A program made the translations under genes and the position numbers. Shown here in pieces: positions 2,579-54,913 of a stretch of DNA of 54,913 bases. Source of the stretch: a virus. Lineage: Duplodnaviria; Caudoviricetes. The stretch is taken from positions 1-54,913 of IMG/VR virus record IMGVR_UViG_3300049489_000585; one strand, given 5' to 3'. The notes under the pieces are model-generated. The model searched no databases, was not told the DNA's origin, and saw only the letters and a program-made list of their open reading frames with translations. How positions within the stretch are numbered: the stretch's first letter is position 1; the number at the start of each line of letters is the position of its first letter.

Positions 2579-2600
2579 GGTTTAGTCCTTTGTGTGTGGT

Positions 2601-2846: not shown

Positions 2847-2871
2847 GTCGTTCTCCGGTTGCTGTGCGTTC

Positions 2872-2900: not shown

Positions 2901-2936
2901 GCTGCATTTGCATCTTTACATTCGCGTGCCTACGCG

Positions 2937-2990
2937 CCATAACCCTGCGCTCAACCGGACCGAGTACGGCCGGTTAGCTCCACGTTGGGC
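2937..2990 (+). other. attC: attC12 (54 bp)
   Basis: CCATAAC...GTTGGGC. GCGCCATAAC pairs with GTTATGGCGC at 1988. Near copy of attC3. Confidence 0.9.
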
Positions 2991-3574: not shown

Positions 3575-3582
3575 CGTTGAGC
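3488..3582 (+). other. attC: attC13 (95 bp), last site of array
   Basis: GCCCAAC...GTTGAGC. TGAAGCCCAAC pairs with GTTGGGCTTCA at 2984. Confidence 0.9.
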
Positions 3583-4426: not shown

Positions 4427-4453
4427 GGGGCTCCTTGGTGGTGGTGGGCTTGG

Positions 4454-4789: not shown

Positions 4790-4908
4790 CGGGTCCTTTC
4801 GGTGGTGGTCAGAAGAAAGGCGGGCGGCCGTTGCCGGCGCGTGGTGGGAATCGAGGGAGGGAGGAGACAGGAGGTGCCCACCGCGCAGGATTCGCCCGTG
4901 GAAATGGG

Positions 4909-5088
4909 TCAGTCGCAGCGCGTGCAGCGATTGAGCTCGGACACGCCGTGCGGACAGCGGGAGGCCCGCGCAGCGTTGCCGGCGGCCAGCGCGAGTTGGC
5001 GCTGCAGGCGTTCGATGGCGTCGGCCGCCTCTCGCTGCAGAAGCACGTTGGGCGGGCTCTCGCGAAGCCGCTGGATGAGAGCGTCCAT
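4909..5088 (-). CDS. Small hypothetical protein (CPHG...C..C)
   Basis: TGATG coupling with the upstream ATPase. Confidence 0.65.
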   Translation of the reverse strand: MDALIQRLRESPPNVLLQREAADAIERLQRQLALAAGNAARASRCPHGVSELNRCTRCD

Positions 5089-6884
5089 CAGGCTGCCTCC
5101 CTCAGTGCTTGGCGCCCAACGACGCCGGCCTCGATCCACTCGACCTGGACGCGCTCGCCCAGGCCGGCGGGTGGTTGCTTGAGCGTCGCGAACAGCAACG
5201 CGCTGTCGATCTCGCCGGTCTCGGCCAGCACGTCGAGCCACGCGAACAGGTCGCTGCGGCCCGGCAGGTCCAGCACGTCGACGCGGTCCAGCACCAGCAT
5301 GCGGGCGCTGGACACGTGCGCGATGGCCTCGGCCAGCATCGCGTCGGCACGCCAGCGCTCGGACTCGCTGCAAAGCGCGTAGGGCCTGCCGGCGCCGTAG
5401 GTGATCGCCATGTCGCTGTCGATCGACACCACCGGCCAGGCGGCATCGGCCGATGACTGCGCCAGGCGGGCGTTCACCGGGCCCAGGGCTTCGGACAGCA
5501 GATCGGCCGGGATGCCGTCGGGCGACAGTGCCTGCGCAATCGCGTCCCAGGCGGTCACGTCGGCGGCGTGCTGGCCGGCCTGCTTGGTCTTGGCCTCGGC
5601 GGCGTCGGCCAGCGCCTTGATCGACTTCAGCTTGTCGCCCTCGGCCACCGCGGCGGCGCGCTCGGCCTTCAGCTTCTCGACCTGGTCGCGGGCGTCCTGC
5701 AGGGCCGCGGCGTCGAAGGTCTCGTTCAGCTCGTCGGCGATGGCCTTGGCCTGGGCGTGCGCATCCTGGGCCGCAGCCAGATCGCGCTTGGCGTTGGCCA
5801 CGGCGCGCTGCATCAGCTCGAGCGCGCCGCACAACTCCGGCAGCCGGCTGCGGGCACCGTGGTCGCCGACGGCCAGAGCATCGATCGGGCCGTGCTCGGT
5901 TTCGTAGGCAGCCAGTGGGGCTGCCCAGGCTGCACGGAACTGGTGGTCGGCACCGACGAAGAACAGCGTGTCCCGCAGCGCGTGCGCCAGGTCATGCACC
6001 AGCCCAACACGCGGCCCTGCGCCGGCCTTCGCGGTGGCTTGCGCAAGCGCGGCCTCAGACTCGCTCAGGCCTCGCTGGTCGGCCTGCAGCTTGGCCTCGA
6101 GGCGGGGCACCTTGGCCGCATGCTCCTGCAGCGCCGGCAGCTTCGCCCGCAGCCCGGCACGGCGCTGCTCCTCGGCCTGCAGCCGTCCAATGGTCTGCTG
6201 CCAGGATGCGATGGCCACGTCAGCGTGCTTCGCGGCGGTGGCGTGCTTCGCGGCGGCCTCGGCGTCGTACGGCGGCACCGCGGCCTTCCAGCCCTTGGCC
6301 TTCTCGCTGCCGTAGGTCTCGCCGGTGACGGTGCGCCAACTACCTTTGCTTTCGGTCGCCTTGGTCTTGGCCTCGGTGCACGCGGCGTCGAAGCCAGAGC
6401 GCAGCAGCGGCAGCACGCGCTGCACCTTGGCGTCGTCGCAGCCCTTGGCCTTCAGGCGGGCAGCGATGTCGGCCTGCGCCATCTTCACGCCCATCAGGCC
6501 GAAGAGGAAGGCGCGGCGCTCGGTCAGTGGCAGCCGGGCGAACCGCTGGGCGTCCAGCACGTAGGCCAGCACCGGGTCGGTGTCGCGGCCCTTCTGGCTG
6601 TCGTGGATCTTGCCGCTGCGGTTGATGGTGACGCGCCACTCGTCGCCGTCGGCGTTCTTGACCTCGCACACGGCCAGGTCGGCGCCCTCGCGGATCAGGG
6701 CCGGCGCGTCCTTCTTCAGCGACACGCGGCCCAGGTCGGCGGTGATGGCCAGGGCCACGGCGTCCCTGAGACTCGACTTGCCGGCAGCGTTTTGACCGGC
6801 GAACAACGCCACCGGTGCGCGCAGCTGGATCTCGGCATGCTGGATGCCGAGGAAGTTTGTGACGTAGAGCGAACTGATGCGCAT
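5088..6884 (-). CDS. SMC/SbcC/Rad50-like coiled-coil ATPase
   Basis: NFLGI, Walker A GQNAAGKSS, long coiled coil, signature-like LCSESE, Walker B LVLDRVD. Confidence 0.85.
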   Translation of the reverse strand: MRISSLYVTNFLGIQHAEIQLRAPVALFAGQNAAGKSSLRDAVALAITADLGRVSLKKDAPALIREGADLAVCEVKNADGDEWRVTINRSGKIHDSQKGRDTDPVLAYVLDAQRFARLPLTERRAFLFGLMGVKMAQADIAARLKAKGCDDAKVQRVLPLLRSGFDAACTEAKTKATESKGSWRTVTGETYGSEKAKGWKAAVPPYDAEAAAKHATAAKHADVAIASWQQTIGRLQAEEQRRAGLRAKLPALQEHAAKVPRLEAKLQADQRGLSESEAALAQATAKAGAGPRVGLVHDLAHALRDTLFFVGADHQFRAAWAAPLAAYETEHGPIDALAVGDHGARSRLPELCGALELMQRAVANAKRDLAAAQDAHAQAKAIADELNETFDAAALQDARDQVEKLKAERAAAVAEGDKLKSIKALADAAEAKTKQAGQHAADVTAWDAIAQALSPDGIPADLLSEALGPVNARLAQSSADAAWPVVSIDSDMAITYGAGRPYALCSESERWRADAMLAEAIAHVSSARMLVLDRVDVLDLPGRSDLFAWLDVLAETGEIDSALLFATLKQPPAGLGERVQVEWIEAGVVGRQALREAA

Positions 6885-6888
6885 GGCG

Positions 6889-7989
6889 TCACTCCACGGC
6901 AGGGCCAGCGGCGCGGGCGCGGCGGGCGGTGGGGGCTGCCGTCGCAGCGGCAGGCGCCTGGCCGGCGGCCTCGGCCTGTTCGCGCGCGCGGATCGCGGCT
7001 TCCTCGGCGGCGCTGGGTGCCCAGTCGTCGCCGGGGCCTTGGTCCGGCGGCGGGGCCGGGGCAGGCGGCGCAACGGCGGTGACGGCCGGCGGTTTCGGTG
7101 GCTTCGGCGGATCGACCTCGCCGGTCGGATCATCGCCACCACCGGCGCCGTCAGCCTCGGCATCCGGCAGGAATCCGAAGTCGCCGTCGATCACGTCCAT
7201 GCGCTGGTCCTGGCCACGCGAGGCAGCTTCATCAAGCCCAGCCGCGGTCTGGAACTCGATCGACAGCGGCAGGTACTTGGCCAGCCGACGGATCACCGTC
7301 TTGCGGCCCATCTCGACGAAGTGAGCGACCCACGGATGAGCGGCTTCCTTCTTGTACTTCTGGGCCTGTTGGAACCCCTGCGACGCGGCGCGGATGGCCT
7401 CGATCTGGTGGGTGCTCATGAACTCGAAGCAGTGGCCGCCGTCCTTCAGCTTGGCCACTGCGTAGAAGCCGACCACGCCGCCGCGGTCGCCCATCGCAGG
7501 CGTGTGGTTCAGCTTCTCGTCTAGGCCGTAGACCAGCTCGAATCGATCGTTCTCGCAGACCTCGTGCGCGGCGATGCTCACGATCTGCCCACTGCGCCGG
7601 GCCAGGTCGATCAGCCCCTTGTAGCCGATGATCACCTGCACGCTGTTGACCCAGCGCTCGTTGCCGTCGGCGTCCTTGCGCTTGGTGTTGAAGGGCACGA
7701 GGTAGGCGTGGCCGAGCACGGTGTTCGGCTCCAGGCCCATCTGCGCGCACTGGCCGATGGCGCCGACCAGAGACGCCACATCGCACTTGGCCAGGGCCGG
7801 CGTGGTGGTGGCCGCGATCTGCGCAACCTTCAGCAGCCGATCGATGCTCAGCGTCTTCGGCAGCATCTTGGCCAGGTCGCCCTTCTTCTTCTCAAGCAGG
7901 TAGGCGATCTGCTCCTTCGGCTTCATGTCGGCCAGCGGCCGGGTGGCGACCGCGCTGGCGGACTTCAGTTCTGCGATGTTGGTGGACAT
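6889..7989 (-). CDS. recT: RecT-family ssDNA annealing recombinase
   Basis: GLEPN..LGHAYLVPF, IIGYKGLIDLARRSG, EMGRKTVIRRLAKYLPLSIE. Confidence 0.93.
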   Translation of the reverse strand: MSTNIAELKSASAVATRPLADMKPKEQIAYLLEKKKGDLAKMLPKTLSIDRLLKVAQIAATTTPALAKCDVASLVGAIGQCAQMGLEPNTVLGHAYLVPFNTKRKDADGNERWVNSVQVIIGYKGLIDLARRSGQIVSIAAHEVCENDRFELVYGLDEKLNHTPAMGDRGGVVGFYAVAKLKDGGHCFEFMSTHQIEAIRAASQGFQQAQKYKKEAAHPWVAHFVEMGRKTVIRRLAKYLPLSIEFQTAAGLDEAASRGQDQRMDVIDGDFGFLPDAEADGAGGGDDPTGEVDPPKPPKPPAVTAVAPPAPAPPPDQGPGDDWAPSAAEEAAIRAREQAEAAGQAPAAATAAPTARRARAAGPAVE

Positions 7990-7996
7990 GGTGTTC

Positions 7997-8839
7997 TCAC
8001 TCGTGGAAGTTGCAGGTAGACCAGCGCGCGCAATACTTCTCAGCGCACAGCATGGACTGGGGGTTAGGCGGGAACAGTCCCGTCCGAAACATCTCGGCCG
8101 CGAACTCGATCAGCCCGCGCTGGCCGTCGGCGCCGACCATCACGCGCTTGGCATCGAAGACCTTCGACGCCATGACCTGCGGCTTGCTGCTGGTCTGCAG
8201 TGCCAGCACCTGGCCGCCTAGGGTCTCCACCTGTTCGGTGTGCTCGTACATCAGTTGGTAGGTGCCGACCTGGGCGCTGCGGCCCTTGACCTTGGCCTCG
8301 CCCTTCTCGATGACGCGCGAGCCAGACTTGAGGTCCGGGATCACGATGCCGTCATCGGTGGCGGCCACGCGAGCGCGATCCATGGTGCCGGTCAGCCGGA
8401 TGACGATGCCACTGCCGCAGTCGATGTCGAGCGGGTCGAGCTTCTGCTCCACGCTCTTGAACGTGAACCGGGGCGACAGGTCCAGGCAGTACATCGTGTG
8501 CAGCTGCAGGCCGATCTTCTCGGCGTCGCTGACGGTCAGGTCATCCTTGCTGTAGTCCACGTCACGATCGGGCTTGTGCAGCGCGTCGACAAAGGCGCCC
8601 GCGGCGTCGTTGACCGACATGCGGCTGCCGCCCGGCAGGCGCCCGCTGTCGAAGGCCGCGGTGCTGGCGTGGAGTGCGGTGCCCAGCTGCGCGCGCAGGC
8701 CCGAGGCGTTGCGCATGCCCAGCAGGTGCTCGCCTTCCCACCGATGGGCGCAGTCGAACAGGCCACCCCAACTGGATGCGCGCACGGCGGTGACGCTGCG
8801 CTCAGCGACGACGGGGATGATGCGTTCAGGCGCGTTCAC
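7997..8839 (-). CDS. PD-(D/E)XK RecB/Cas4-like exonuclease (RecT partner)
   Basis: GTALH, LTGTMD, PDLKSG, QVGTYQL, C-terminal Cys cluster. Confidence 0.85.
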   Translation of the reverse strand: MNAPERIIPVVAERSVTAVRASSWGGLFDCAHRWEGEHLLGMRNASGLRAQLGTALHASTAAFDSGRLPGGSRMSVNDAAGAFVDALHKPDRDVDYSKDDLTVSDAEKIGLQLHTMYCLDLSPRFTFKSVEQKLDPLDIDCGSGIVIRLTGTMDRARVAATDDGIVIPDLKSGSRVIEKGEAKVKGRSAQVGTYQLMYEHTEQVETLGGQVLALQTSSKPQVMASKVFDAKRVMVGADGQRGLIEFAAEMFRTGLFPPNPQSMLCAEKYCARWSTCNFHE

Positions 8840-9374
8840 AGCGGATTCCCCCAGAACTCAAACACCTTCGCCCAGGCCTTGGCCGCAGCGTTGCGGCGCG
8901 TCATGCCACTGCGGCGGTAGAAGCGATACAGCCGGATGAGCGTCACAGCAGCACCACCGCGGCGGCAGCGCCCAGGATCGCGGCAATGGCGGCCCACTGC
9001 ACCCAGGGCAGCCACCGCGACGTGCTGCGGGCCTCGGCGTCGACCAATGCGGCGAGCTCGCTGCTGTACTCCAGGCCGTCCCGGATGTCGGAGTCGTGCG
9101 TCATGCCGGCCTCACGCTCAGGCGCTGCAGGTCGTCGTCCAGCGCATCGATGGCAGCGATCACGGCATCGCAACTGCTGCGCGCGATCAGGGTCAGCGTG
9201 CCACTGGCGCCGCTGCGGAGAACGTAGCGGGCGAGGAAGGTGCGCATCACGGCTTCACCTCATCAACAACGGTGCCGCCGACCAGCGCCCCGGCTGCCCA
9301 CATGGCCAGCATCGACAGCGCGATGCCGGACAGCAGGCCCAGCAGGAACGCGAACGCAAGAAGGTCGGGGCGCA

Positions 9375-9764
9375 TCACGTGTTCCTCGGCATCTTGTCCA
9401 GCGCGCGCTGCAGTTCAGTGGCGAGGTGCTCCATCCAGTCGGACGAGATCCACACCTCGTTCAGCTTGACCGCGAACACCGTGTACCCGTCGTGCGGGTG
9501 CCGCTCGTCCGCCGGCTCGACCTCGCACGCGACATCCCACACCGCGCCGCGGTACGGCACGCCGACGATCGCGTCACCGGGGCGGATCTGGATCTGGTGC
9601 TGCGGGCCGCGGCGGGCGGGGATCAGCGCTGCCTCAGCGGCAAGCGCGGTGTAGTGCTCGACGGCGCGGGCCTTGTCGACCGGCCGCTCAAGCACCGCCT
9701 GCGCGGCCTCGAATTCACCGAACGAGCTGTCCGACACGTCGGGCGTGGGGATGCGGGCGTTCAT
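9375..9764 (-). CDS. Hypothetical protein
   Basis: GGAGG RBS and ATGA coupling. Confidence 0.7.
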   Translation of the reverse strand: MNARIPTPDVSDSSFGEFEAAQAVLERPVDKARAVEHYTALAAEAALIPARRGPQHQIQIRPGDAIVGVPYRGAVWDVACEVEPADERHPHDGYTVFAVKLNEVWISSDWMEHLATELQRALDKMPRNT

Positions 9765-10018
9765 GCTGCCTCCGCGACGAGCCCGGCCGGCAACGCTTCA
9801 CGCCGCCCCGCCTTGGCGGCCTTGACGGCCTGCCGGCGGCCCAGCGCCTTCACGTTGGCGCGGCGCAGCTTCTTCTCCGCGCTGGCCGTGTGCTGACCCA
9901 GCCAGTCGCCACCCTTGGCCGGCTTCGGTGCGGCCGGGTGCTTCACGCCCTGGCCATGTCGGCGCCCCGAGCCCTTCTTGGTCGGGTGCTCCGTTCGTTG
10001 GTCGGTGATCTGCGGCAT
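9761..10018 (-). CDS. Basic hypothetical protein, first gene of leftward operon
   Basis: GGGAG RBS just downstream of the PL-like promoter. Confidence 0.65.
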   Translation of the reverse strand: MPQITDQRTEHPTKKGSGRRHGQGVKHPAAPKPAKGGDWLGQHTASAEKKLRRANVKALGRRQAVKAAKAGRREALPAGLVAEAA

Positions 10019-47644: not shown

Positions 47645-48928
47645 TCAGCCGACTTTGCGGTCTTTCGACTTGCGCAAGTCATTGATTTTCAACACGTGCG
47701 CACCGCGGGAACGGGTTGTGATTCTGGTCGTCGTGGGTTCGAGTCCCATCAGCCACCCCACCCTATGAGAATCGGCCACTTCGGGGGCCTTTTTCTTGGC
47801 CGGCTCGGACGGCACTTGTCGCGCCGTTGTCGCAGGCCCGATGTTCCCGGCCCATGCCGCGACGTGGCTCGGCGCCAAGTGGGCGTAGCGCTGCAGCATG
47901 TCGGCCGAAGCCCAGCCGCCGAGTTCCTGCAGGGCGCTGTCAGGCGTTCCGGCCATGCGGTGCCAGCTGGCCCAGGTGTGCCGCAGGTCGTGCCAGCGCA
48001 GCGTGGGTAGCCCGGCCCGAATGCAGGCCTTGCGCCAGGCCGCGCTGCTGGCCTTGCCGGTGGGCATCTCCCAGGTCAGCCGCGGCTTGTCCTCCGGCCG
48101 GCGCTTCTTGGTCCACCGCGGGGCCGGGAACACCCAGCGCTTGTGCATGCCCTGCTGGCCGCGCAGCACGTCCATGGCGTCGGGGTTCAGCGGCACCGAG
48201 AGCGCCTTGCCGGCCTTGGCCTCGTCGGCGTGCACCCAGGCGGCCGCCCGCGGCAGGTCGACCTCTGACCACTGCAGCAGCCGGACGTTGCTCTCGCGCA
48301 GGCCGGTGGCCAGCGCGAAGCGGGCCATGGCGCGCAGGTGGTCCGGCAACTCGGCCAGCAGCGCCAGCGCTTGCTCGTGCGTGATCCAGTTCGTGCGGCC
48401 CTCGGGCTCGTGCAGCTTGGGCACCGGGGGCGGCGCCGGCAGCCAGCCGCGCAGTTGGGCGTGCTTCAGGATGCGCGACAGGTCGCTCAGGTAGCGGTTG
48501 ACGGTGGCCGGCGACAGCATGCGCGGCGCCGGTGGCCTCTCTCCGGCAGCCTTGGCGGCCTCGATGTCGGCGGCGTTCGCCGGCTCGGCCTGGCGCTCGC
48601 TGCTGATCTTGCGCACCATGTCGGCGGTGATGCCGGCCAGCGGCTTGCCGATCAGGCGGGCGGACAGCCAGCGGAGGTTCCGCTTGGCCTCCTCGAGGCT
48701 GCGCAGGTGCTGGTGCTCATCCAGCCACGACAGGACCGCTTCGTCCCAGGTGTGGGACGGCGCCTCACCTAGACGGTGCTGCCGCCACTGATCGCGGTAA
48801 GCCGTGGCGGCCCACTCCTTCGCCGCGGCTTCGTCCGTGGTGCCAGTGCTGCGGACAAAGCGCCGGCCGTCCTGGGCGGTGAAATCGACCCACCAGGTGC
48901 CGCGCTTGCCTCGTCGGTAGACCCGCAT
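47645..48928 (-). CDS. int: Phage tyrosine integrase
   Basis: STGT, ATVNRYL, TGLRESN, HDLRHTWASW, LGGW, RYAH. Confidence 0.95.
   Translation of the reverse strand: MRVYRRGKRGTWWVDFTAQDGRRFVRSTGTTDEAAAKEWAATAYRDQWRQHRLGEAPSHTWDEAVLSWLDEHQHLRSLEEAKRNLRWLSARLIGKPLAGITADMVRKISSERQAEPANAADIEAAKAAGERPPAPRMLSPATVNRYLSDLSRILKHAQLRGWLPAPPPVPKLHEPEGRTNWITHEQALALLAELPDHLRAMARFALATGLRESNVRLLQWSEVDLPRAAAWVHADEAKAGKALSVPLNPDAMDVLRGQQGMHKRWVFPAPRWTKKRRPEDKPRLTWEMPTGKASSAAWRKACIRAGLPTLRWHDLRHTWASWHRMAGTPDSALQELGGWASADMLQRYAHLAPSHVAAWAGNIGPATTARQVPSEPAKKKAPEVADSHRVGWLMGLEPTTTRITTRSRGAHVLKINDLRKSKDRKVG
47716..47760 (+). other. attP: attP core = 3' half of tRNA-His(GTG)
   Basis: TTGTGATTCTGGTCGTCGTGGGTTCGAGTCCCATCAGCCACCCCA gives the anticodon loop, T-arm, acceptor strand and CCA. 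The 5' half is absent. Confidence 0.9.
47774..47797 (+). terminator. Terminator for reconstituted tRNA
   Basis: GGCCACTTCGGGGGCC followed by TTTTTCTT just after the CCA. Confidence 0.6.
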
Positions 48929-49122
48929 TCGTCCTTGCTCCCTGCCGCTGGCGGCCGATGGTACTGGGTGCGCACCCACTCGATCAGATCCTCGTCGATG
49001 AACAGCCACGCCCGCCCGACCTTGGTCGCCGGCAGCCCGCGGCGCTCGATGGCCTCGGTGACGGTGTCCGGGTGCGCCTTCAGCATCTTGGCGGCGCGGG
49101 TGAGGGTGAGGATGCGGGCCAT
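48769..49122 (-). CDS. xis: Excisionase-like HTH protein
   Basis: LTLTRAAKMLKAHPDTV...GLPATKVGRAWLF. Overlaps the int start. Confidence 0.8.
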   Translation of the reverse strand: MARILTLTRAAKMLKAHPDTVTEAIERRGLPATKVGRAWLFIDEDLIEWVRTQYHRPPAAGSKDECGSTDEASAAPGGSISPPRTAGALSAALAPRTKPRRRSGPPRLTAISGGSTV

Positions 49123-49124: not shown

Positions 49125-50222
49125 TCAGACCAGCGAGTCCAGCGGGCTGCGCACGCACATGCCGCCCTGCTTGGCCGGCAGGACGTGGGTATAGATCATC
49201 GTGGTCTCCAGATCGGCGTGGCCGAGTAGGGCCTGAATCGTGCGGATGTCGTACCCGTCCTGCAGCAGGTGGGTGGCAAAGGAGTGCCGCAATGTGTGCG
49301 GGGTGGCGCGCTTCATGATCCCGGCGCCGGCCACGGCCCGGGCCATCAGGCGCTGGATGCCGTCCTCGTGAAGGTGGTGGCGCCTGACAAGGCCAGTCCG
49401 CGGGCACGTGACGTAGGTGTCGGTGGCGAAGATCCACTGCCAGCGGATGTCCTGCCCGGCCCGCGGGTACTTCAGGTGCAGCGCGTGCGGAAGCTCGACG
49501 TCGGCCCGGCCGGCAGTGAGGTCGACCTGGTGCAGCGCCTTGCGCGCTTCCATCACCTCGCGCAGCTGGCCGGCCAGCGATCGCGGCAGCATGACGGTTC
49601 GATCCTTGGCGCCCTTGCCGTCGCGGACGGTGATGCTGCTCGACTCGATGTCCGCGTCCTGCATGCGCAGGCGCAGACCTTCCGTCAGCCGCAGGCCAGC
49701 GCCGTACAGCAGGCGCAACACCAGGCCGCGGATGTTGGCCTGCGGGATCTGCAGCCACAGGCGCGCCACCTCGTCCCGAGTGAGCACGACCGGCAACTTC
49801 TGCGGCTGCTTGGCGCGCACGATTCCCTCGACCCATGGCAGCTCGACCTGCAGGGCTTGCTGGTACAGGAAAAGCAGCGCGGCCAGGGCCTGGCGCTGGG
49901 TGCTGGCCGACACGTCGCGCACCTGGGCAAGATGCGTGAGGAACTGCGACACCTCCGGCGCGCCCATCTCGAGCGGGTGGCGCTTGCCGGACCACAGCAC
50001 GAACTGGCGCGTCCAGTGCCAGTAGGCCTGCTCCGTACGGCGCGAATAGTGTTTGGCCCTGATCGCGCCGACCACCAGGTGGCGCAGGTGGCCAGGCTCA
50101 CCCGGCTGCGGCTCACTCGCGGATGCAGGAACGCTGCTGCGGGCCAGCCCATCTCCGCGAGCCAGCGCGACAGCGCGGCGCGTAACGGGCTGGCAGGTCG
50201 GCGGTGCTTGGAGGATGGCCAT
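49125..50222 (-). CDS. intI: Integron integrase
   Basis: HYSRRTEQAY, STQRQALAALLFLY, LPVVLT, LLYGAGLR, GKGAKDR, IntI-specific insertion LPHAL..KYPRAG...WQWIF...RRHH, HTLRHSFATHLL, LLGH.D..TTMIYTHV, RSPLD. Confidence 0.97.
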   Translation of the reverse strand: MAILQAPPTCQPVTRRAVALARGDGLARSSVPASASEPQPGEPGHLRHLVVGAIRAKHYSRRTEQAYWHWTRQFVLWSGKRHPLEMGAPEVSQFLTHLAQVRDVSASTQRQALAALLFLYQQALQVELPWVEGIVRAKQPQKLPVVLTRDEVARLWLQIPQANIRGLVLRLLYGAGLRLTEGLRLRMQDADIESSSITVRDGKGAKDRTVMLPRSLAGQLREVMEARKALHQVDLTAGRADVELPHALHLKYPRAGQDIRWQWIFATDTYVTCPRTGLVRRHHLHEDGIQRLMARAVAGAGIMKRATPHTLRHSFATHLLQDGYDIRTIQALLGHADLETTMIYTHVLPAKQGGMCVRSPLDSLV

Positions 50223-50229
50223 GGCGTCG

Positions 50230-50270
50230 GGTGTTACACCGCAGATCCTGCGGTCGAATTGAAGTTAGGC
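50230..50270 (+). other. attI: attI site
   Basis: Core G|TTAGGC at 50264 is not part of an attC hairpin. Upstream TGTTACACCGCAG resembles the attI1 accessory repeat at similar spacing. Confidence 0.8.
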
Positions 50271-50518
50271 GTCTCAACGCGCTCCCACCAGCCGCCCCAC
50301 TCAGCAGGCGTCAGTCTGTCGGCGTGCAAGTGTTCGTGCGGCTGGCAGCACTTCAGCTTGCGCGGCATGTAGTCGTTCGGCCTATCGCCTTGCAAGCGCG
50401 GCGCGCTGGCGTTGGTGTAGCCAACGAACAGCACTTGTTCGCGCATGCGTCCGAGCACGTCGCTATAGCGGTTCCGGTAGGTGCCAACCTCGGTCGGCAA
50501 GGTCTTTGTGTACGCCAT
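50234..50518 (-). CDS. Cassette 1: hypothetical protein
   Basis: AAGGAG RBS. Reads through attI and stops 11 nt before the intI ATG. Confidence 0.7.
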   Translation of the reverse strand: MAYTKTLPTEVGTYRNRYSDVLGRMREQVLFVGYTNASAPRLQGDRPNDYMPRKLKCCQPHEHLHADRLTPAEWGGWWERVETPNFNSTAGSAV

Positions 50519-50564
50519 CGCTTTCTCCTTTGTTCGCTGGCCTGGGTCACGCGCCGGTGGCAAC

Positions 50565-50630
50565 GCCTAACCCGTCGTCCGACCTGACAGCCCCGGCAAG
50601 CCGGGTCTGCAGGTCAACTTTGCGTTAGGG
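50565..50630 (+). other. attC: attC1 (66 bp)
   Basis: GCCTAAC...GTTAGGG. ACGCCTAAC pairs with GTTAGGCGT at attI. Confidence 0.92.
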
Positions 50631-50631
50631 C

Positions 50632-51381
50632 TCAAAACCCCATGCCCTGCTGCTCCGGCACGGGCTGCGCCAAATCGAGCAGGGAACCTTGCGCGTAAGC
50701 GGCTTCTATCCGCTGGCACGCCAAATCGAAGGCAGCGCGGTCAACCTCGCAGCCTATGAACTTCCGCCCAGCGCGGGCACATGAAACGCCAGTCGTTCCT
50801 GCGCCCATGTGCGTGTCCAGCACCGTGTATCCGGGCCGCGAGTAGTCCGCCACCAGCGCATCCATCAGCAGGGTCGGCTTGCCACCCATGCGGGCCTTGT
50901 CGTTCCAGCCAGGCCCGGCCACGTAGCCGCCCGGCAGCGTGCCCCACTTCATCTGCGCCTTGGTGCGCGCCACCACAATCCAGTCCGTCCACGAGCTGGG
51001 GCCGTCACCACTCAGGCGCACAGCGCGCCCCGGCTGGTAAAAGGGCAGCGGTGCAAACGCATAGCGCCCGGCCTTCTCCAGCGCGGTGCGCACAGCCAGC
51101 GCCAAGTCGCTGTCGGTCATCCACACCACCCAGCCGCTGCACACCCGCGTGTACTGCTCGGCAAAGTACGCCACGTCTTCAAGCGTCAGCGCGCGGTAGC
51201 CCAGGGCCTGCCGTTCGGCGCTGTCGCGTGCTTTCGAGGCACCGGCATCGTGGCCCGCGTGGCACCGTTCGCTGTAGGGCGGGTCGGTTATCACCGCGTC
51301 CACGCTGGCAAGCGTGGGCAGCACTTCGCGGCAATCACCGCGGTGCAGTGTGGCTTGCCCAATGGTCACGGTCTCCAGCAT
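50632..51381 (-). CDS. Cassette 2: N6/N4 DNA methyltransferase (beta class)
   Basis: GDC.EVL, ITDPPY, KP, VLDTHMGAGTTG, FIGCE. Confidence 0.92.
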   Translation of the reverse strand: MLETVTIGQATLHRGDCREVLPTLASVDAVITDPPYSERCHAGHDAGASKARDSAERQALGYRALTLEDVAYFAEQYTRVCSGWVVWMTDSDLALAVRTALEKAGRYAFAPLPFYQPGRAVRLSGDGPSSWTDWIVVARTKAQMKWGTLPGGYVAGPGWNDKARMGGKPTLLMDALVADYSRPGYTVLDTHMGAGTTGVSCARAGRKFIGCEVDRAAFDLACQRIEAAYAQGSLLDLAQPVPEQQGMGF

Positions 51382-51405
51382 TCGTTGTCCTCGTAGCAAA
51401 TACAG

Positions 51406-51464
51406 CCCTAACAGGTCGCTCAAACGGACGGGCCTACGGCCCGCCGTTTAGCTTTGCGTTAGCC
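51406..51464 (+). other. attC: attC2 (59 bp)
   Basis: CCCTAAC...GTTAGCC. AGCCCTAAC pairs with GTTAGGGCT. Confidence 0.92.
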
Positions 51465-51922
51465 CGCTCAAGCGGATCCAGCACAAATTCCGCGATGTGA
51501 CGGCCGGTGCCCTTTCCTGCGGATCCGTCCTCGGTCGCAAGCCAGCGCACGTCGCCCAGGTTGCGTACCTTCGCGCCCTCGGCCAGCAGCATCAGCACCC
51601 ACTTGTCTATCGGGTACACCAGCACCACGCGCTTGCCCTTCTTGGCTTCGGCAATCGCCTTCCGGGCCCAGGCCGTCGGCCCCTTCTTCTTCCCCTGGTG
51701 CATCACGGATCCAAAGGGCGGGTTGACGTAGTTACTTTCGCCCCACTCGCACGTAAGGCCGTCGAACTCGGGCGGCTTCGGGTAAGGGCACGGGTCGAAG
51801 GTGAAGCTGTAGCGCGCGTGCAGGTCTGCGAACAAATCCGGCGGCGTCAGCCAGTAGTGCTTGCCATCGTCGCCGTTGCCAGCGTGGAACTTGTTTGCGT
51901 CAGGTGCTAGGTTGTTTGCCAT
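51434..51922 (-). CDS. Cassette 3: phage Dam-like N6-adenine methyltransferase
   Basis: WLTPP, FDPCP, DGL..EW, YVNPPF. Stop lies inside attC2. Confidence 0.85.
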   Translation of the reverse strand: MANNLAPDANKFHAGNGDDGKHYWLTPPDLFADLHARYSFTFDPCPYPKPPEFDGLTCEWGESNYVNPPFGSVMHQGKKKGPTAWARKAIAEAKKGKRVVLVYPIDKWVLMLLAEGAKVRNLGDVRWLATEDGSAGKGTGRHIAEFVLDPLERANAKLNGGP

Positions 51923-51947
51923 CGTTCTCTCATTTGTTGTTGCAGCG

Positions 51948-52001
51948 GGCTAACCCGCCGCTGAACCGGACTGAGTACAGCCGGTTAGCTGCACGTTCGG
52001 C
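51948..52001 (+). other. attC: attC3 (54 bp)
   Basis: GGCTAAC...GTTCGGC. AGCGGGCTAAC pairs with GTTAGCCCGCT. Confidence 0.92.
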
Positions 52002-52009
52002 TTCATGCC

Positions 52010-52354
52010 TCAGTTCGCCATGTCGGCGGCAGCCAGCACAATCGCGCGCCTCGTGGCGGCCCGCGGGTCCGTTCCCCACAGCACATCGTGCGCCACAGCC
52101 TCGCCGTCAAAGGCAACGCCGGCCACCGTCACCGCGCCCTCGGTCAGAGTCTGCGCAATGTCTAGTTCCAGCGTCACGGCAAGGTCCAGCGCCTGGCCGC
52201 TGTCGGTCAGAGGGTTCCACCACGTCGCGTGCGTCAGCCACAGTGAGGGCTCGTTCGGCATCTCGGCCTCACGCTCGCTCTGCTTGCGTGCGTTCAGTCC
52301 GTAGCCGGCGGCTTGCGCGGCCTTCAGCAGCAGTTCTTTGTCCGTCAGCATCAT
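52010..52354 (-). CDS. Cassette 4: phage hypothetical protein (possibly NinX/ABA-sandwich-like)
   Basis: WNPLTDSGQALDLAV...ATRRAIV.AAA. AGGAG RBS. Confidence 0.75.
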   Translation of the reverse strand: MMLTDKELLLKAAQAAGYGLNARKQSEREAEMPNEPSLWLTHATWWNPLTDSGQALDLAVTLELDIAQTLTEGAVTVAGVAFDGEAVAHDVLWGTDPRAATRRAIVLAAADMAN

Positions 52355-52387
52355 CTCGCTCCTTTGAATTCACGCGCTCCGGCCGCA

Positions 52388-52439
52388 GCCGAACTACTCG
52401 CTCAAGCCGACCTTCGGCGGCTTAGCTCGAACGTTATGC
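52388..52439 (+). other. attC: attC4 (52 bp)
   Basis: GCCGAACTACTCGCTCAAGCCGACCTTCGGCGGCTTAGCTCGAACGTTATGC, a typical top-strand attC pattern. Confidence 0.92.
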
Positions 52440-52440
52440 A

Positions 52441-52851
52441 TCAGTAACCCGGGTAGTTGCGCTCGGCCTGCGCATCGTTGTGCTTGCTCCAATACTCTGC
52501 CTTCGCCGTGGTGTAGCTCCACTCGTTGCGCCCGTCTTCAGGCCCAGCCACCGTGTACGGTCCGAACTCACTTTGCACATTCCTTGCCCGCAGCGCCGAC
52601 AGAATGCAAGCCGGGCAATCGTTCGCAGCCTCACACATCGCCTTGAACCCACTCGCATCCAGCAGGCGCAGCAGTTCATCGCGCGGCGGCGCTGGCTCTG
52701 GCCCGCCATCGTCGTGCAGATTGGCGCACATGCCGCACACACGCTGCGGGTTCAGCGTGCAGCCGCGCTCGTGGCGCTTCATTGCGCTCGGGCTTCCGTT
52801 GCCCTTGTTGCAGTGGTCGCAGTAGTAGCGCGGCCTCATTGCGGTTCTCAT
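52441..52851 (-). CDS. Cassette 5: zinc-finger protein
   Basis: CDHC...H...C...C..C, CPAC. GAGGA RBS. Confidence 0.78.
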   Translation of the reverse strand: MRTAMRPRYYCDHCNKGNGSPSAMKRHERGCTLNPQRVCGMCANLHDDGGPEPAPPRDELLRLLDASGFKAMCEAANDCPACILSALRARNVQSEFGPYTVAGPEDGRNEWSYTTAKAEYWSKHNDAQAERNYPGY

Positions 52852-52878
52852 GCTTGTCCTCTCCGTTCACCAACTGAT

Positions 52879-52936
52879 GCATAACCCTTCGCTCGAACGG
52901 ACGGCCTACGGCCGCCGTTCAGCTCCCACGTTAGCC
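52879..52936 (+). other. attC: attC5 (58 bp)
   Basis: GCATAAC...GTTAGCC. ACTGATGCATAAC pairs with GTTATGCATCAGT. Confidence 0.92.
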
Positions 52937-52946
52937 AGACACATGC

Positions 52947-53294
52947 TCACTTCAGTATCTGGCGAAGAGCCCAGTACTCGGGGTTGACGATGGCGGTCAT
53001 GGCATCGCTGAACACCAGGCCGCCAATCAGCGCGGTAAGCCCGCAAACGATGCCGACGCCAATCCAAGCAAGGCCGCGGTCAAACTCATCGTTCCATTCG
53101 GGCCTATCACCAGATGTTTTCCTGCCCACAAAGCGCGCGACCCACACGCACGCAGCAGCCCACGCGGTCAACACCACCAAGTCAAGCGCGCCAGAGAGCG
53201 GAGCCTGCTTCACCAGCACGCCCCACAGATACTCCGCCGTTGTGCCGAGTTTGTTTGCCAGCGCCGTCACGGCCTGCAAGGTCTTGTCGTCCAT
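52947..53294 (-). CDS. Cassette 6: two-TM membrane protein
   Basis: LA.KLGTTAEYLW.VL.KQA, two hydrophobic helices, NPEYWAL. Confidence 0.78.
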   Translation of the reverse strand: MDDKTLQAVTALANKLGTTAEYLWGVLVKQAPLSGALDLVVLTAWAAACVWVARFVGRKTSGDRPEWNDEFDRGLAWIGVGIVCGLTALIGGLVFSDAMTAIVNPEYWALRQILK

Positions 53295-53331
53295 GTCATT
53301 CCTATTCGCATGCCAGCATTTCACCAGTGCT

Positions 53332-53394
53332 GGCTAACTGGCGCATGCAGCGGACTCGCCCTAGCGGGCTCGCGCGCTGATGCTGTCGTTCGGC
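53332..53394 (+). other. attC: attC6 (63 bp)
   Basis: GGCTAAC...GTTCGGC. CTGGCTAAC pairs with GTTAGCCAG. Confidence 0.9.
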
Positions 53395-53395
53395 C

Positions 53396-53713
53396 TCAAG
53401 TTCCAACCTTGTCGGCCGTCCCCTTCCAGGTGAATTCGCCATCGGCGCCCACCGGGAAGTGCGCGCGGCAGATGGCGCAGAACGTGCCGCTGTAGAAGGC
53501 GGGCTCGCGGGCATAGGTCTCGGCCAGCGCCAGGCCCATCGTCGTCACGCCGCCGCACTTTTCGTGCACGTAGGACTGGCGCACGGGCCGCACAAAGCCC
53601 TTCGCGCGCTCTTCGGCGCTCAGCACCACGTAGCCCTTCTGCTGCCCCGTGGCCGGGTCAATCTCGCGGTGGTCGGGCGTGACGGGCGAACCGTCTGTCA
53701 GCGTGGTGTTCAT
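53396..53713 (-). CDS. Cassette 7: zinc-ribbon hypothetical protein
   Basis: KGFVRPVR.SY.H.KCG, TFC..C..HFPV. Confidence 0.78.
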   Translation of the reverse strand: MNTTLTDGSPVTPDHREIDPATGQQKGYVVLSAEERAKGFVRPVRQSYVHEKCGGVTTMGLALAETYAREPAFYSGTFCAICRAHFPVGADGEFTWKGTADKVGT

Positions 53714-53926
53714 TGCTTCTCCGCAAGCTCGAAATTGAAGGCGCCGCCTTCGATGTTGAAAGAACAGACGAAACGCCCGGTCTCGTCCACCTCTTGCGCC
53801 GGAATCGACACCTTGCTGCCCAGCCTGCGCAGCAGCGCAATCAGAAGCTGGTCCTTGAAGTCGTCGATCACGTCCGCGTGCAGCCCAGCGCCAGCGGCGC
53901 GAGCGGCATCAGTTCCCTTGCCCATG
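53710..53926 (-). CDS. Cassette 7: hypothetical protein
   Basis: AAAGGA RBS before ATG 53926, ATGA coupling. Confidence 0.7.
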
Positions 53927-53953
53927 TCAGTCCTTTCGCGTCGGCGCATTGAG

Positions 53954-54054
53954 GCCGAACCCTTCGTTCCACCGGACAAGCCCCGGCGGGTGGCATTGGC
54001 GCAATGACCTACTTGGTCAGCGCCGGGTCTTGCCGGTGAACTCCGACGTTAGGC
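53954..54054 (+). other. attC: attC7 (101 bp)
   Basis: GCCGAAC...GTTAGGC. TTGAGGCCGAAC pairs with GTTCGGCCTCAA. Confidence 0.9.
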
Positions 54055-54269
54055 GTCTTGCTGTCATCGAAGCCGTGCTCCACGGCTCGCCAGTCGCCGC
54101 GCCTGGCTTCGCGCATGTCCAGCGCGCGGAATTCGGCCGTGATCTGCCTGCGGAACTTGCGCGCCGCGTTCACATCGGCAGTCACGGTCATGTTCACCTG
54201 ACAGGCCATGTAGAGCCCGGTGGACTTCCCGTCCTTGGTGAAGTTCTCCACCAGCCACGAGTACGTCAT
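54009..54269 (-). CDS. Cassette 8: hypothetical protein
   Basis: GAGGA RBS. Stop lies inside attC7. Confidence 0.7.
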   Translation of the reverse strand: MTYSWLVENFTKDGKSTGLYMACQVNMTVTADVNAARKFRRQITAEFRALDMREARRGDWRAVEHGFDDSKTPNVGVHRQDPALTK

Positions 54270-54484
54270 GAGTAGTCCTCGTCAAAGTTGCACGGCACCG
54301 TCCACTGCTTGCCGCAGCGGCTGCACTCGATGATGTCGTGATCGTCTATTACGCCGCAGCAGTCCACAGTGCGCGGCGCCGGGCATCTTTGCAGGTGCTT
54401 CTGGCAAAGCTCGGGCTTCTCGGCATCGTGCAGGCTGCACCCGCCTTTGATACGGCCACCTTCGTAGCGCTTAGGCGTCGTCAT
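54266..54484 (-). CDS. Cassette 8: small Cys-rich protein
   Basis: Multiple Cys, ECSRCGKQW..PCNFDEDYS, overlaps neighbours. Confidence 0.6.
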   Translation of the reverse strand: MTTPKRYEGGRIKGGCSLHDAEKPELCQKHLQRCPAPRTVDCCGVIDDHDIIECSRCGKQWTVPCNFDEDYS

Positions 54485-54746
54485 ACAGGTCGTATCGCTG
54501 GCAAAGCGCGTCCATGTCAAGCCGGGCGCGCTGCGTCACCAGTTCGCGTCCGTCACGAAATACCACGCAGCGGTAGCGCTGGCCCGGACGAATCTTCCAC
54601 TTGTCGGCCTCAACGCCTTCAAGCACCAGCCGCTCGTCAGCAGTTACGGCATCGCGCGGCTGGCCGTAACTGCGCCACATTTCGCTGGCGTCGCAGTCGT
54701 AGAACTTGCGCGCGGTTCTCACTTCGTCTTTCAGTACCAATACCAT
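54471..54746 (-). CDS. Cassette 8: hypothetical protein
   Basis: GAGGAG RBS. RTARK.Y.CDA...I.PGQRY. Confidence 0.72.
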   Translation of the reverse strand: MVLVLKDEVRTARKFYDCDASEMWRSYGQPRDAVTADERLVLEGVEADKWKIRPGQRYRCVVFRDGRELVTQRARLDMDALCQRYDLYDDA

Positions 54747-54769
54747 CGTTTGCTCCTCTGCGCCACGAC

Positions 54770-54823
54770 GCCTAACCCGTCATTCGAGCCGACCGTTCCG
54801 GCGGCTCAATTCCCACGTTGTGC
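54770..54823 (+). other. attC: attC8 (54 bp)
   Basis: GCCTAACCCGTCATTCGAGCCGAC...CGGCTCAATTCCCACGTTGTGC. GACGCCTAAC pairs with GTTAGGCGTC. Confidence 0.93.
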
Positions 54824-54913
54824 CGCACTGAACACCGCCGCGCCAGTTCCACCAGCCAAGCGCGGAACTCCGGCGGCGTGTGCTCTCGCTCGGCCTTGCT
54901 CATGATCTCGACC
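54815..54913 (+). repeat. Exact duplicate of 123-221 (start of cassette 9); circular overlap
   Basis: ACGTTGTGCCGCACTGAAC...GATCTCGACC is identical at both places. Confidence 0.95.

What the first reader, a model, noticed from the sequence alone, without database searches (positions are those of the whole stretch)
49125..54913. A complete integron (intI + attI + 13 attC cassettes) built into a temperate phage genome
Seen: an intact IntI with the integron-specific insertion, an attI core 41 nt from its start, and 13 attC hairpins continuing across the circular junction to 3582. For every cassette, the bases flanking R'' are the reverse complement (8-13 bp) of the bases at the cassette's start, the signature of circular cassettes inserted at G|TT. 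The integron sits between the phage early genes and xis/int, and its cargo is phage-type rather than host-type. Known: integrons are described from chromosomes, plasmids and transposons, and to my knowledge are not an established component of phage genomes. Inference: the phage has domesticated an integron to capture and shuffle its own accessory early genes.
Basis: partly seen in the sequence, partly recalled or inferred. Interest (0 to 1): 0.97.

Follow-up and report, generated by a model that had tools for sequence, protein, structure and literature searches.

The report
Integron built into a temperate phage
A lambda-like temperate phage carries a complete gene-capture system (an integron with 13 cassettes) next to its own integrase, with the cassette genes facing backwards compared with bacterial integrons, and related phages carry the same module.

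Summary
The ORF at 49125-50222(-) is an integron integrase (TIGR02249, 412.7 bits against a cut-off of 265). An attI core lies 41 nt from its ATG. Thirteen distinct attC sites run to 3582. A covariance model built from them also finds the three annotated class 1 attC sites of a control record, and nothing else in the window.

The window is a complete lambda-like phage: tail genes, attP in a tRNA, int, xis, intI, attI, 13 cassettes, then the recombination genes.

The window does not close 54913 to 1. Bases 1-222 are a second version of the array junction without cassette 8. An independent assembly of the probable source run shows two clean cassette-sized variants (769 and 935 bp) that break at G|TT.

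- All cassette genes lie antisense to the attC top strand. They run the same way as intI, xis, int and the phage's leftward early genes.
- This IntI falls in a 24-sequence clade (SH-aLRT 99) made only of viral contigs, usually next to a phage integrase.
- One cassette sits at attI, or behind other attC sites, in related phages.

The novelty claim is overstated. Qi et al. 2023 already reported integrons in phages. I rate this a new variant of a known kind.

The parts
49125..50222 (-). intI, integron integrase, 365 aa
   Evidence: TIGR02249 412.7 bits against cut-off 265. 2a3v E 2.6e-72. IntI-specific segment present in A3.
50233..50270 (+). attI: L-like box GTTACAC 50233-50239, an inverted repeat, and core GTTAGGC 50264-50270 with crossover G50264|T50265
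   Evidence: Conserved in window, L003, L005, L006, L022 and L029. Similarity stops on the cassette side of the core. Same two-box layout as attI1 read from L049. L013 and L014 share it but differ in the first cassette.
50265..50624 (+). cassette 1 (360 bp); ORF on the - strand, start 50518, reads across attI and stops at 50234; attC 50565-50630
   Evidence: R1 59.0 bits. Sense-like codon composition on the - strand. ORF start.
50625..51458 (+). cassette 2 (834 bp); DNA methyltransferase ORF 50632-51423(-); attC 51406-51464
   Evidence: PF01555 and phrog_67. R1 57.5 bits.
51459..51995 (+). cassette 3 (537 bp); methyltransferase-like ORF 51434-51922(-); attC 51948-52001
   Evidence: phrog_111 1.3e-15. 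R1 57.3 bits.
51996..52433 (+). cassette 4 (438 bp); ORF 52010-52354(-); attC 52388-52439
   Evidence: phrog_5086. R1 51.8 bits. Depth 22.3 in X1 against about 48 for the backbone.
52434..52930 (+). cassette 5 (497 bp); zinc-finger-like ORF 52441-52851(-); attC 52879-52936
   Evidence: R1 67.7 bits. A joint in X1 skips cassettes 4+5 (935 bp).
52931..53388 (+). cassette 6 (458 bp); membrane protein ORF 52947-53324(-); attC 53332-53394
   Evidence: phrog_1486. R1 41.5 bits.
53389..54048 (+). cassette 7 (660 bp); two ORFs, 53396-53713(-) and 53710-53979(-); attC 53954-54054
   Evidence: R1 70.1 bits. No family hit for either ORF.
54049..54817 (+). cassette 8 (769 bp); three ORFs on the - strand (54009-54269, 54266-54520, 54471-54746); attC 54770-54823; present in a minority of the population
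   Evidence: The X1 joint 54045 to 54815 skips 769 bp. Cassette depth is about 8-9.5 against about 48. Its left part recurs in L014 and L003. X12 holds an 844-nt contig matching 54047-54826.
54818..54913 (+). cassette 9, first part (continues at 223)
   Evidence: Bases 128-222 repeat 54820-54913.
223..817 (+). cassette 9, second part (691 bp in all); ORF 86-784(-), phrog_12600 and methyltransferase-like; attC 724-823
   Evidence: phrog_12600 4.6e-63. R1 42.5 bits on a site not used in training.
818..1252 (+). cassette 10 (435 bp); ORF 825-1142(-); attC 1170-1258
   Evidence: R1 50.0 bits. Sense-like composition on the - strand.
1253..1988 (+). cassette 11 (736 bp); RNA ligase ORF 1253-1885(-); attC 1905-1994
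   Evidence: PF09414 1.4e-20 and phrog_548. R1 57.8 bits.
1989..2984 (+). cassette 12 (996 bp); three ORFs on the - strand (1989-2168, 2165-2578, 2601-2873); attC 2937-2990
   Evidence: R1 57.5 bits. No family hits.
2985..3576 (+). cassette 13 (592 bp); DNA methyltransferase ORF 2951-3574(-); attC 3488-3582 lies inside its 5' coding part
   Evidence: phrog_954 2.3e-69. R1 65.0 bits.
1..222 (+). redundant contig start: the cassette 7 attC joined directly to cassette 9 (the form without cassette 8)
   Evidence: 1-127 equals 53924-54050 and 128-221 equals 54820-54913. The same joint appears in X1.
48769..49122 (-). xis (excisionase); its ATG lies 2 nt after the intI stop codon
   Evidence: phrog_2907 2e-9. 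Coordinates.
47645..49009 (-). phage tyrosine integrase (probable start 48928)
   Evidence: PF00589 9.1e-25. Lacks the IntI-specific segment.
47716..47760 (+). attP core, identical to the 3' end of a host tRNA gene
   Evidence: Sequence read. Contigs in X1, X2, X3 and X12 branch here into tRNA-like and other flanks (tables 7 and 8).
3584..10018 (-). leftward early genes that precede the array: exonuclease 7997-8839, RecT 6889-7989, SbcC-like 5088-7163, and small ORFs
   Evidence: phrog_69, phrog_148 and phrog_77. A divergent regulator gene lies at 10115-10387(+).

Best explanation
This is a working integron native to a lambda-like temperate phage.

Shown:
- The circular genome is about 54.7 kb with cassette 8 and about 53.9 kb without it.
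- Gene order is tail genes, attP in a tRNA, int, xis, intI, attI, 13 cassettes (8.0 kb), orf280, orf111, SbcC-like, RecT, exonuclease, then the divergent regulatory region.
- intI, attI and attC have the canonical geometry. The attC top strand points away from the 5' end of intI.
- Every cassette gene lies on the other strand, so the whole array, intI, xis and int read the same way as the leftward early genes.
- Each gene has its own ribosome-binding region next to its attC and often ends beyond the cassette border.
- intI, xis and int are packed 2 nt apart or overlapping.

Inferred:
- The array and intI are transcribed from the phage's leftward early promoter, as the accessory genes, xis and int are from pL in lambda (recalled). 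No Pc would be needed. IntI would be made together with Xis and Int on infection or induction.
- IntI then excises cassettes (attC x attC) and inserts them at attI. The phage lineage thereby swaps accessory early genes with co-resident phages.
- The identifiable cargo (four DNA methyltransferases, an RNA ligase) suggests protection against host restriction and RNA-targeting defences.
For: Identity of the parts:
- IntI is identified.
- R1 hits are confined to the array, all on one strand. R1 also finds all three class 1 attC sites of L049 on the sense strand of dfrA12, the next cassette and aadA2.
- Across 71 attC sites from the window and 18 related loci, 90.9% of cells pair. Eight of 10 L-helix pairs show compensatory changes. 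Slid controls pair at 22-44%.
- Each R'' is complementary to its own cassette start.

Phage context:
- Terminase, portal, protease, capsid, tape measure and tail J are present. So are the regulator, replication genes, RusA and exonuclease.
- CheckV completeness is 100.

Gene polarity:
- Nine of 13 cassettes have a sense-like frame only on the - strand.
- Nine of 19 - strand ORFs hit PHROGs, against 0 of 10 + strand ORFs.

Activity:
- In X1, which is Logan's own assembly, a joint skips exactly cassette 8 (769 bp). Another skips exactly cassettes 4+5 (935 bp, depth 21.5 against 22.3 for cassette 4). Both joints are ambiguous over only 5-6 nt at ACGTT.
- The left part of cassette 8 sits at attI in L014. 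L013 has the same attI and intI but a different first cassette.

Lineage:
- Twenty-four IntI rows form a clade (SH-aLRT 99) with no separate genome row.
- The gene after intI is a phage tyrosine or serine integrase in 9 of 10 loci tested.
- Tail genes lie beyond it.
Against: - No RNA data exist, so transcription from an early promoter is an inference from gene order.
- The promoter scan is a strict sigma-70 consensus. It found none on either strand in 47500-54913, so it neither shows nor excludes a Pc or internal promoters.
- No early-left promoter or repressor was identified. Three small ORFs next to the divergent region had no PHROG hit.
- The variants in X1 could be co-existing strains that differ by old events rather than current IntI activity. 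X1 is probably the source sample and is held only as contigs.
- Depths do not add up for cassette 5: 47.2, although a joint that skips it has 21.5.
- R1 was trained on this window's own sites, and its E-values are rough.
- The coding-strand predictor used on relatives is crude. It called 11 of 42 viral intervals on the canonical strand.
- No counter-defence role was tested. Ten of 19 array ORFs have no family, and PADLOC gave 0 of 10.
Confidence: 0.78

Rival explanations
1. The phage recently picked up a fragment of a host chromosomal integron by aberrant excision or recombination. This is what Qi et al. 2023 proposed for the Vibrio anguillarum phages. On this view the integron is a passenger, not a phage module.
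For: Published precedent (PMC9892861). The IntI clade sits among Betaproteobacteria-type and class 1 integrases in the tree, so it ultimately came from bacteria.
Against: - In the tree all 24 rows of the clade are IMG/VR rows. The one matching genome row, L051, is the same sequence as L010.
- intI is 2 nt from xis.
- The position next to the phage integrase is kept across tyrosine and serine integrases and across different tail modules.
- The cargo hits phage families, and its gene polarity is the opposite of what my predictor finds in bacterial arrays: 56 same, 15 opposite and 2 uncalled of 73 intervals.
Confidence: 0.07
2. The integron is a fossil. IntI no longer acts, and the cassette differences are old differences between co-existing phage strains.
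For: No experiment has been done. X1 holds contigs only, so rates cannot be read.
Against: - IntI is full length, and the aligned conserved HxxR, H and Y positions are intact.
- The backbone contigs in X1 show no other letters while the array varies by whole cassettes (tables 3 and 8).
- L013 and L014 have zero-length IntI branches but different first cassettes.
Confidence: 0.1
3. The join is an assembly chimera between a phage and a host integron, or a prophage mis-bounded next to a chromosomal integron.
For: The contig's ends lie inside the array, and IMG/VR calls the record linear.
Against: - Logan's independent contigs link attP, int, xis, intI, attI and cassettes 1-3 in one 4267-nt piece at depth 48.4.
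- A 9955-nt contig at depth 48.9 carries the joint from the cassette 7 attC into cassette 9 and runs on beyond the window's end. That it continues into the early genes is inferred from its length.
- Phage genes flank the array on both sides.
- Five further loci show intI-xis-int, with tail genes beyond.
Confidence: 0.03

Closest known systems
Integrons reported in phage genomes (Qi, Rajabal, Ghaly, Tetu, Gillings 2023, PMC9892861)
   Same: A complete integron (intI, attI, attC cassettes) inside a temperate phage record, with methyltransferase cassettes among the cargo.
   Different: - Those cases are read as captured pieces of host integrons (Vibrio anguillarum), a class 1 integron on a P1 phage-plasmid, and an inactive Shewanella prophage.
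- In the Shewanella record the annotated cassette genes lie on the same strand as the R1 attC hits and diverge from intI.
- Here the genes are inverted, intI is fused into the xis-int unit, and the IntI belongs to a clade seen only on viral contigs.
Class 1 and chromosomal integrons of Betaproteobacteria type
   Same: - IntI is 53% identical to IntI1.
- The attI layout has two boxes.
- attC architecture: a 7-bp R box, a 5-6 nt unpaired spacer, an L helix with two bulged bases on the R''-L'' arm, and crossover at G|TT.
   Different: - Cassette genes are antisense to the attC top strand.
- Only 41 nt separate attI from the intI ATG, against about 137 nt in L049.
- No LexA box lies near intI.
- No Pc-like consensus was found.
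- intI is co-directional with the cassette genes.
Inverted-integrase integrons (Treponema type; recalled, not read here)
   Same: intI and the cassette genes are transcribed in the same direction.
   Different: - As I recall, in that group intI itself is flipped, so the array follows its 3' end.
- The bacterial loci L084, L090 and L118 show that layout with R1.
- Here the array is at the 5' end of intI with canonical attI and attC geometry, and it is the genes within the cassettes that are flipped.
Accessory early-left region of lambdoid phages (recalled)
   Same: Small non-essential genes lie between the recombination genes and xis-int, read in the same direction.
   Different: Here each gene or small gene group is a discrete attC-bounded cassette, served by a dedicated recombinase.

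Membership tests
Integron (complete) | intI: a tyrosine recombinase with the IntI-specific additional segment | tested here: met
   TIGR02249 412.7 bits against cut-off 265. The segment aligns with IntI1 and with VchIntIA, and is absent from the phage Int.
Integron (complete) | attI next to the 5' end of intI, with a GTTRRRY core | tested here: met
   GTTAGGC at 50264-50270. Conserved in 6 of 8 aligned upstream regions, with similarity ending at the core. Identical attI with different first cassettes in L013 and L014. Function was not assayed.
Integron (complete) | attC sites: imperfect R''-L''/L'-R' hairpins with extrahelical bases, structure conserved more than sequence | tested here: met
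   Folds. R1 cross-detects three class 1 attC sites. Covariation is shown.
Integron (complete) | Cassettes are discrete units: R'' pairs with the cassette's own first bases | tested here: met
   8-13 bp for the own start against 3-7 bp for the neighbour's start. Own start is the unique best in 12 of 13.
Integron (complete) | Promoterless cassette genes oriented with the attC top strand and expressed from Pc near attI | tested here: not met
   All supported ORFs are on the opposite strand. No sigma-70-like site was found in 47500-54913. This concerns the expression platform, not the recombination system.
Integron (complete) | IntI-mediated excision and insertion | tested here: inconclusive
   Cassette-precise variants in X1 and one cassette in three contexts fit this. 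No experiment was done, and rates cannot be read from contigs.
Integron (complete) | SOS (LexA) control of intI (common, not defining) | tested here: not met
   CTGT-N8-ACAG with up to 1 mismatch gives 7 sites, none between 48518 and 54913. The motif was recalled from memory.
Temperate tailed phage, lambda-like layout | Packaging, head and tail genes, a divergent early region, xis-int, and attP in a tRNA | tested here: met
   CheckV completeness 100.

The most novel reading that the evidence does not exclude
Temperate phages of freshwater and wastewater Burkholderiales-like hosts carry their own class of integron.
- It has a phage-restricted IntI clade wired into the xis-int operon.
- Its cassettes have mirror-image gene polarity.
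- This would make a cassette pool separate from the bacterial one. A bacterial cassette inserted here would be antisense to the early transcript, and a phage cassette inserted in a bacterial integron would be antisense to Pc.
- The platform would be switched on with induction or infection and would shuffle counter-defence genes (orphan methyltransferases, RNA repair).
- It would be the phage-side counterpart of chromosomal integrons that store defence genes.
Probability: 0.4. Interest if true: 0.9.

Novelty: new variant of a known kind. Interest (0 to 1): 0.8.

Why it matters
Integrons are studied as bacterial devices for capturing genes, above all resistance genes. Here the same machinery is a standing part of a phage lineage. 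It sits beside the phage's own integrase, and its cassettes point the other way so that a phage transcript, not Pc, would express them.

- It gives a concrete mechanism for the well-known mosaicism of phage accessory early regions.
- It predicts a second cassette pool that standard screens may mis-orient, because they assume gene and attC share a strand.
- It offers a natural case where cassette gain and loss can be followed within one population.
- It would be a direct route for moving cassettes between cells inside virions.

Tried and rejected
- A naive scan for AAC...GTT pairs with complementary flanks was not specific. It gave 16 candidates in and near the array and 25 elsewhere, so I dropped it for the covariance model.
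- Rfam has no matching family: 0 matches at gathering score.
- A LexA-box search found nothing near intI.
- The promoter and terminator scan found 0 promoters. It found 4 terminator-like sites against 5.4 expected, so it says nothing about transcription units.
- PADLOC gave 0 of 10 cassette ORFs with a defence family.
- The protein atlas for the third ORF of cassette 8 found only unnamed, mostly viral clusters.
- blastn of the array against all 129 fetched loci at 80% identity or more over 150 nt or more found only the left part of cassette 8, in L014 and L003. The other cassettes are not shared at that level.
- Runs X2 to X24 hold only 7-10% of the sampled words. I laid only X2, X3 and X12. 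X2 covers mainly the tRNA/attP end. I draw no habitat conclusion from the runs I did not lay.
- Parts of the stretch without cover in X2, X3 and X12 are not evidence of absence.
- I considered a cassette boundary at 54472 inside cassette 8. R1 finds no attC there, so I kept it as one cassette and treat it as a probable fusion (see Noticed in passing).
- Literature searches for phage integrons beyond Qi et al. 2023 were. Nothing describing a phage-specific IntI clade or inverted cassette polarity was listed. The library lacks most subscription journals, so this is not proof that it is unpublished.
No structure or complex prediction was run.

Full report
**What is there.** The ORF at 49125-50222(-) is an integron integrase.
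- It scores 412.7 bits on TIGR02249 against a curated cut-off of 265, over model positions 7-315 of 315.
- Its closest solved relative is the Vibrio cholerae integron integrase 2a3v (E 2.6e-72).
- In alignment A3 it shares with IntI1 (53% identity) and the Shewanella phage IntI the extra segment that the phage's own integrase lacks.
- Exactly 41 nt upstream of its ATG lies GTTAGGC (50264-50270).

**The attC sites.**
- Reading the sequence and folding 12 candidate sites gave one architecture. There is a 7-bp R pairing, a 5-6 nt unpaired spacer, then an L helix of 3 bp, a bulged C, 6 bp and a second bulge. Both bulges are on the 5' arm of the + strand.
- I aligned the 12 sites (A1) and built covariance model R1 with that structure.
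- R1 finds 14 sites in the window at E<=1, all on the + strand and none outside the array. One (724-823, 42.5 bits) was not in the training set. One (31-131) is a copy of the cassette 7 site.
- R1 also finds the three attC sites of an annotated class 1 integron (L049, from AB571791) at 48.3, 33.6 and 22.2 bits. Each lies just downstream of its cassette gene and on that gene's sense strand. So the model recognises genuine attC sites and its orientation is the canonical top strand.
- Across 71 sites from the window and 18 related loci, 90.9% of cells pair, against 22-44% when partners are slid. Eight of 10 L-helix pairs show compensatory changes. That alignment is fitted to the model, which favours the structure somewhat.

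**Cassettes are units.** With the crossover at G|TT of each R', the array is 13 cassettes of 360-996 bp, 8003 bp in all. Each R'' with its flank is complementary to its own cassette's first bases over 8-13 bp. It matches the adjoining cassette's start over only 3-7 bp. The own start is the unique best of 14 candidates in 12 of 13 cases.

**The window is a phage, and the array is inside it.**
- The record is an IMG/VR virus record with CheckV completeness 100.
- On the + strand it encodes a regulator, replication proteins, RusA, large terminase, portal, head protease, major head protein, tape measure and a 1431-aa tail protein.
- On the - strand, from the divergent region near 10050, it encodes small ORFs, an exonuclease, RecT, an SbcC-like ATPase and two unknown genes. 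The array follows, then intI, xis (its ATG 2 nt after the intI stop) and int.
- The attP core at 47716-47760 is the 3' end of a tRNA gene. Contigs of four runs branch there into tRNA-like flanks.

**The ends of the window.** Bases 1-127 equal 53924-54050, and bases 128-222 repeat 54820-54913. The circle therefore closes 54913 to 223. The first 222 bases are a second version of the array in which the cassette 7 attC is joined at ...ACG|TT directly to cassette 9.

**Independent read-level support.**
- One run (X1, probably the source sample, held as Logan contigs) holds 99% of the sampled words of 45000-54913.
- Laid on 47500-54913, it gives one 4267-nt contig at depth 48.4 covering attP, int, xis, intI, attI and cassettes 1-3.
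- A 1124-nt contig at depth 51.5 covers cassettes 6-7.
- A 9955-nt contig at depth 48.9 begins with the joint 54045 to 54815, which skips 769 bp, exactly cassette 8. Cassette 8 itself has depth 9.46 and 7.92. So about one genome in five carries cassette 8.
- A second joint, 51991 to 52927, skips 935 bp, exactly cassettes 4+5, at depth 21.5. Cassette 4 has depth 22.3.
- Both joints are ambiguous over only 5-6 nt, which is the shared ACGTT.
- Cassette 5 has depth 47.2, which does not fit a simple two-form picture. Other arrangements probably exist. Loose ends behind 51462 and 54819 show other sequences following the attC sites of cassettes 2 and 8.

**Gene polarity.**
- All supported genes in the array are on the - strand, opposite to the attC top strand.
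- A sense-like codon pattern (high GC3, GC1>GC2) is found on the - strand in 9 of 13 cassettes and on the + strand in none.
- Nine of 19 - strand ORFs hit PHROG families at E<=0.001, and two of them also pass a Pfam gathering score. They are methyltransferases in cassettes 2, 3, 9 and 13, an RNA ligase in 11, a membrane protein in 6, and unknown phage families in 4, 8 and 10.
- None of the 10 longest + strand ORFs hits anything.
- Cassettes 7 and 12 rest on ORF layout only.
- In the class 1 control and in the Shewanella phage record, genes and attC hits share a strand.
- So the recombination geometry here is canonical (intI 5' end, attI, top strand pointing away), but the cargo is inverted. 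The array, intI, xis and int all read in the direction of the leftward early genes.
- Genes often run over the cassette border. The cassette 9 ORF ends differently in the two population forms, and the cassette 1 ORF stops 11 nt before the intI ATG.

**Relatives.**
- A scan of IMG/VR found 47 loci with IntI relatives. R1 gives 80 hits in 29 of them, all upstream of intI and all on the strand expected for canonical geometry.
- Five loci (L002, L003, L005, L006, L022; L002 and L003 have identical IntI) have intI-xis-int with Int 57-62% identical. Tail fibre, distal tail and tape-measure genes lie beyond int.
- In 9 of 10 further loci the gene after intI is a phage integrase. It is tyrosine type in L007, L008, L014, L016, L023 and L028, and large serine type in L004, L010 and L017. 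L025 had no hit.
- Tail or virion families follow in 6 of 10 loci tested.
- In a 105-row tree (quick IQ-TREE, LG+G4), 24 rows form a clade with SH-aLRT 99. The window is among them, and all are viral contigs.
- The 72 rows from the genome collection all fall outside that clade. The one genome contig inside the clade, a Rubrivivax MAG (L051), is the same sequence as viral locus L010.
- With a crude strand predictor, 31 of 42 inter-attC intervals in viral loci have the gene opposite to attC. In bacterial loci 56 were the same, 15 opposite and 2 uncalled of 73. Related loci are not independent, so these figures are indicative only.

**Cassette mobility between phages.**
- Proteins of cassette 8 recur at 68-97% identity in L003, L014 and L026, whose IntI are only 56-77% identical.
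- At the DNA level the left part (54047-54483) is 88-93% identical in L003 and L014.
- Alignment A5 shows that similarity stops at the ...AAC border in each case. In the window it abuts the cassette 7 attC, in L003 another attC, and in L014 attI itself.
- L013 has the same attI and an IntI at zero distance from L014, but a different first cassette.
- An 844-nt contig of run X12 matches 54047-54826 with 6 differences and no more.

**attI.** The region between the core and the intI ATG is conserved in the window and five relatives, and similarity is lost beyond the core. It holds GTTACAC (50233-50239) 31 nt before GTTAGGC. attI1 read from L049 has GTTACGC 32 nt before GTTAGCC. The 41-nt gap leaves little room for an intI promoter. 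No LexA box and no sigma-70 consensus is seen.

**How it most likely works.**
- Shown: the anatomy, the canonical site geometry, the inverted cargo, the tight intI-xis-int packing, the cassette-precise population variants, the same cassette at attI elsewhere, and the viral IntI clade.
- Inferred: the leftward early transcript runs through the array into intI, xis and int. The cassettes would therefore be expressed without Pc, and IntI would be made on infection or induction.
- Inferred: IntI then excises and inserts cassettes, exchanging them between phages present in the same cell.
- The four methyltransferases and the RNA ligase suggest counter-defence cargo. That is a hypothesis only.

**Comparison with what is known.** Qi et al. 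2023 (PMC9892861) screened 10,705 NCBI phage genomes and reported 3 complete integrons, one In0 and 17 CALINs. I read the abstract and results parts 1-2, not the supplements. The bare claim of an integron in a phage is therefore not new. What I did not find in print is a phage-restricted IntI clade fixed beside the phage integrase, or inverted cassette polarity. I rate this a new variant of a known kind, with interest 0.8.

Noticed in passing
window 54049-54817 (around 54472-54484): Cassette 8 looks like a fusion of two older cassettes. Homology to L014 and L003 stops at 54476-54483. L014 has an attC right there (685-778). X3 contigs continue from 54476 into an attC-like sequence. The window has only GCTTAGGC at 54470-54477 and no R1 hit.
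   Followed up: partly
window 52434-52930 (run X1): Cassette 5 has depth 47.2, although a joint that skips cassettes 4+5 has depth 21.5 and cassette 4 has 22.3. Loose ends behind 51462 and 54819 show other cassettes after those attC sites. More arrangements exist than I could resolve from contigs.
   Followed up: partly
L013:9919-10009 and L014:1190-1280: The two viral contigs have identical attI, and their IntI rows are at zero distance in the tree, but they carry different first cassettes. This is a natural attI insertion or loss pair.
   Followed up: partly
L084, L090, L118 (and L125): In these bacterial loci the R1 hits are on the same strand as intI. In L084, L090 and L118 they lie downstream of it, which is the inverted-integrase layout. 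In L125 they lie upstream of it, which is a different geometry.
   Followed up: no
window 37419-37507 (-): ARAGORN calls an 89-nt tRNA-Asp between tail genes on the opposite strand. Rfam finds no tRNA at gathering score. It is probably a false call.
   Followed up: partly
window 19808-24346 (+): A 1512-aa ORF whose residues 195-595 match the PHROG 'minor head protein and DNA pilot' family (phrog_220). The remaining ~900 residues are unassigned, and the ORF overlaps the portal ORF's end.
   Followed up: no
window 12066-12081 and 12112-12127: Two near-identical 16-nt palindromes (CTGTCACGCGTGACAG and a one-mismatch copy) lie 46 nt apart inside the primosomal/replication gene. They may be origin repeats or an operator. 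They also match the LexA-box pattern.
   Followed up: no
window 45000-54913: Twenty-three further runs from 17 other studies (freshwater, sediment, wastewater, activated sludge) each hold 7-10% of the sampled words. In the two informative runs I laid (X3, X12) this is mostly cassettes 2, 8 and 9, not the phage backbone.
   Followed up: partly
L003:5235-6272, L005:5893-7431, L022:4336-6336: Large DNA methyltransferase genes lie at the far end of the arrays in three related phages. Methyltransferases recur around these integrons.
   Followed up: no
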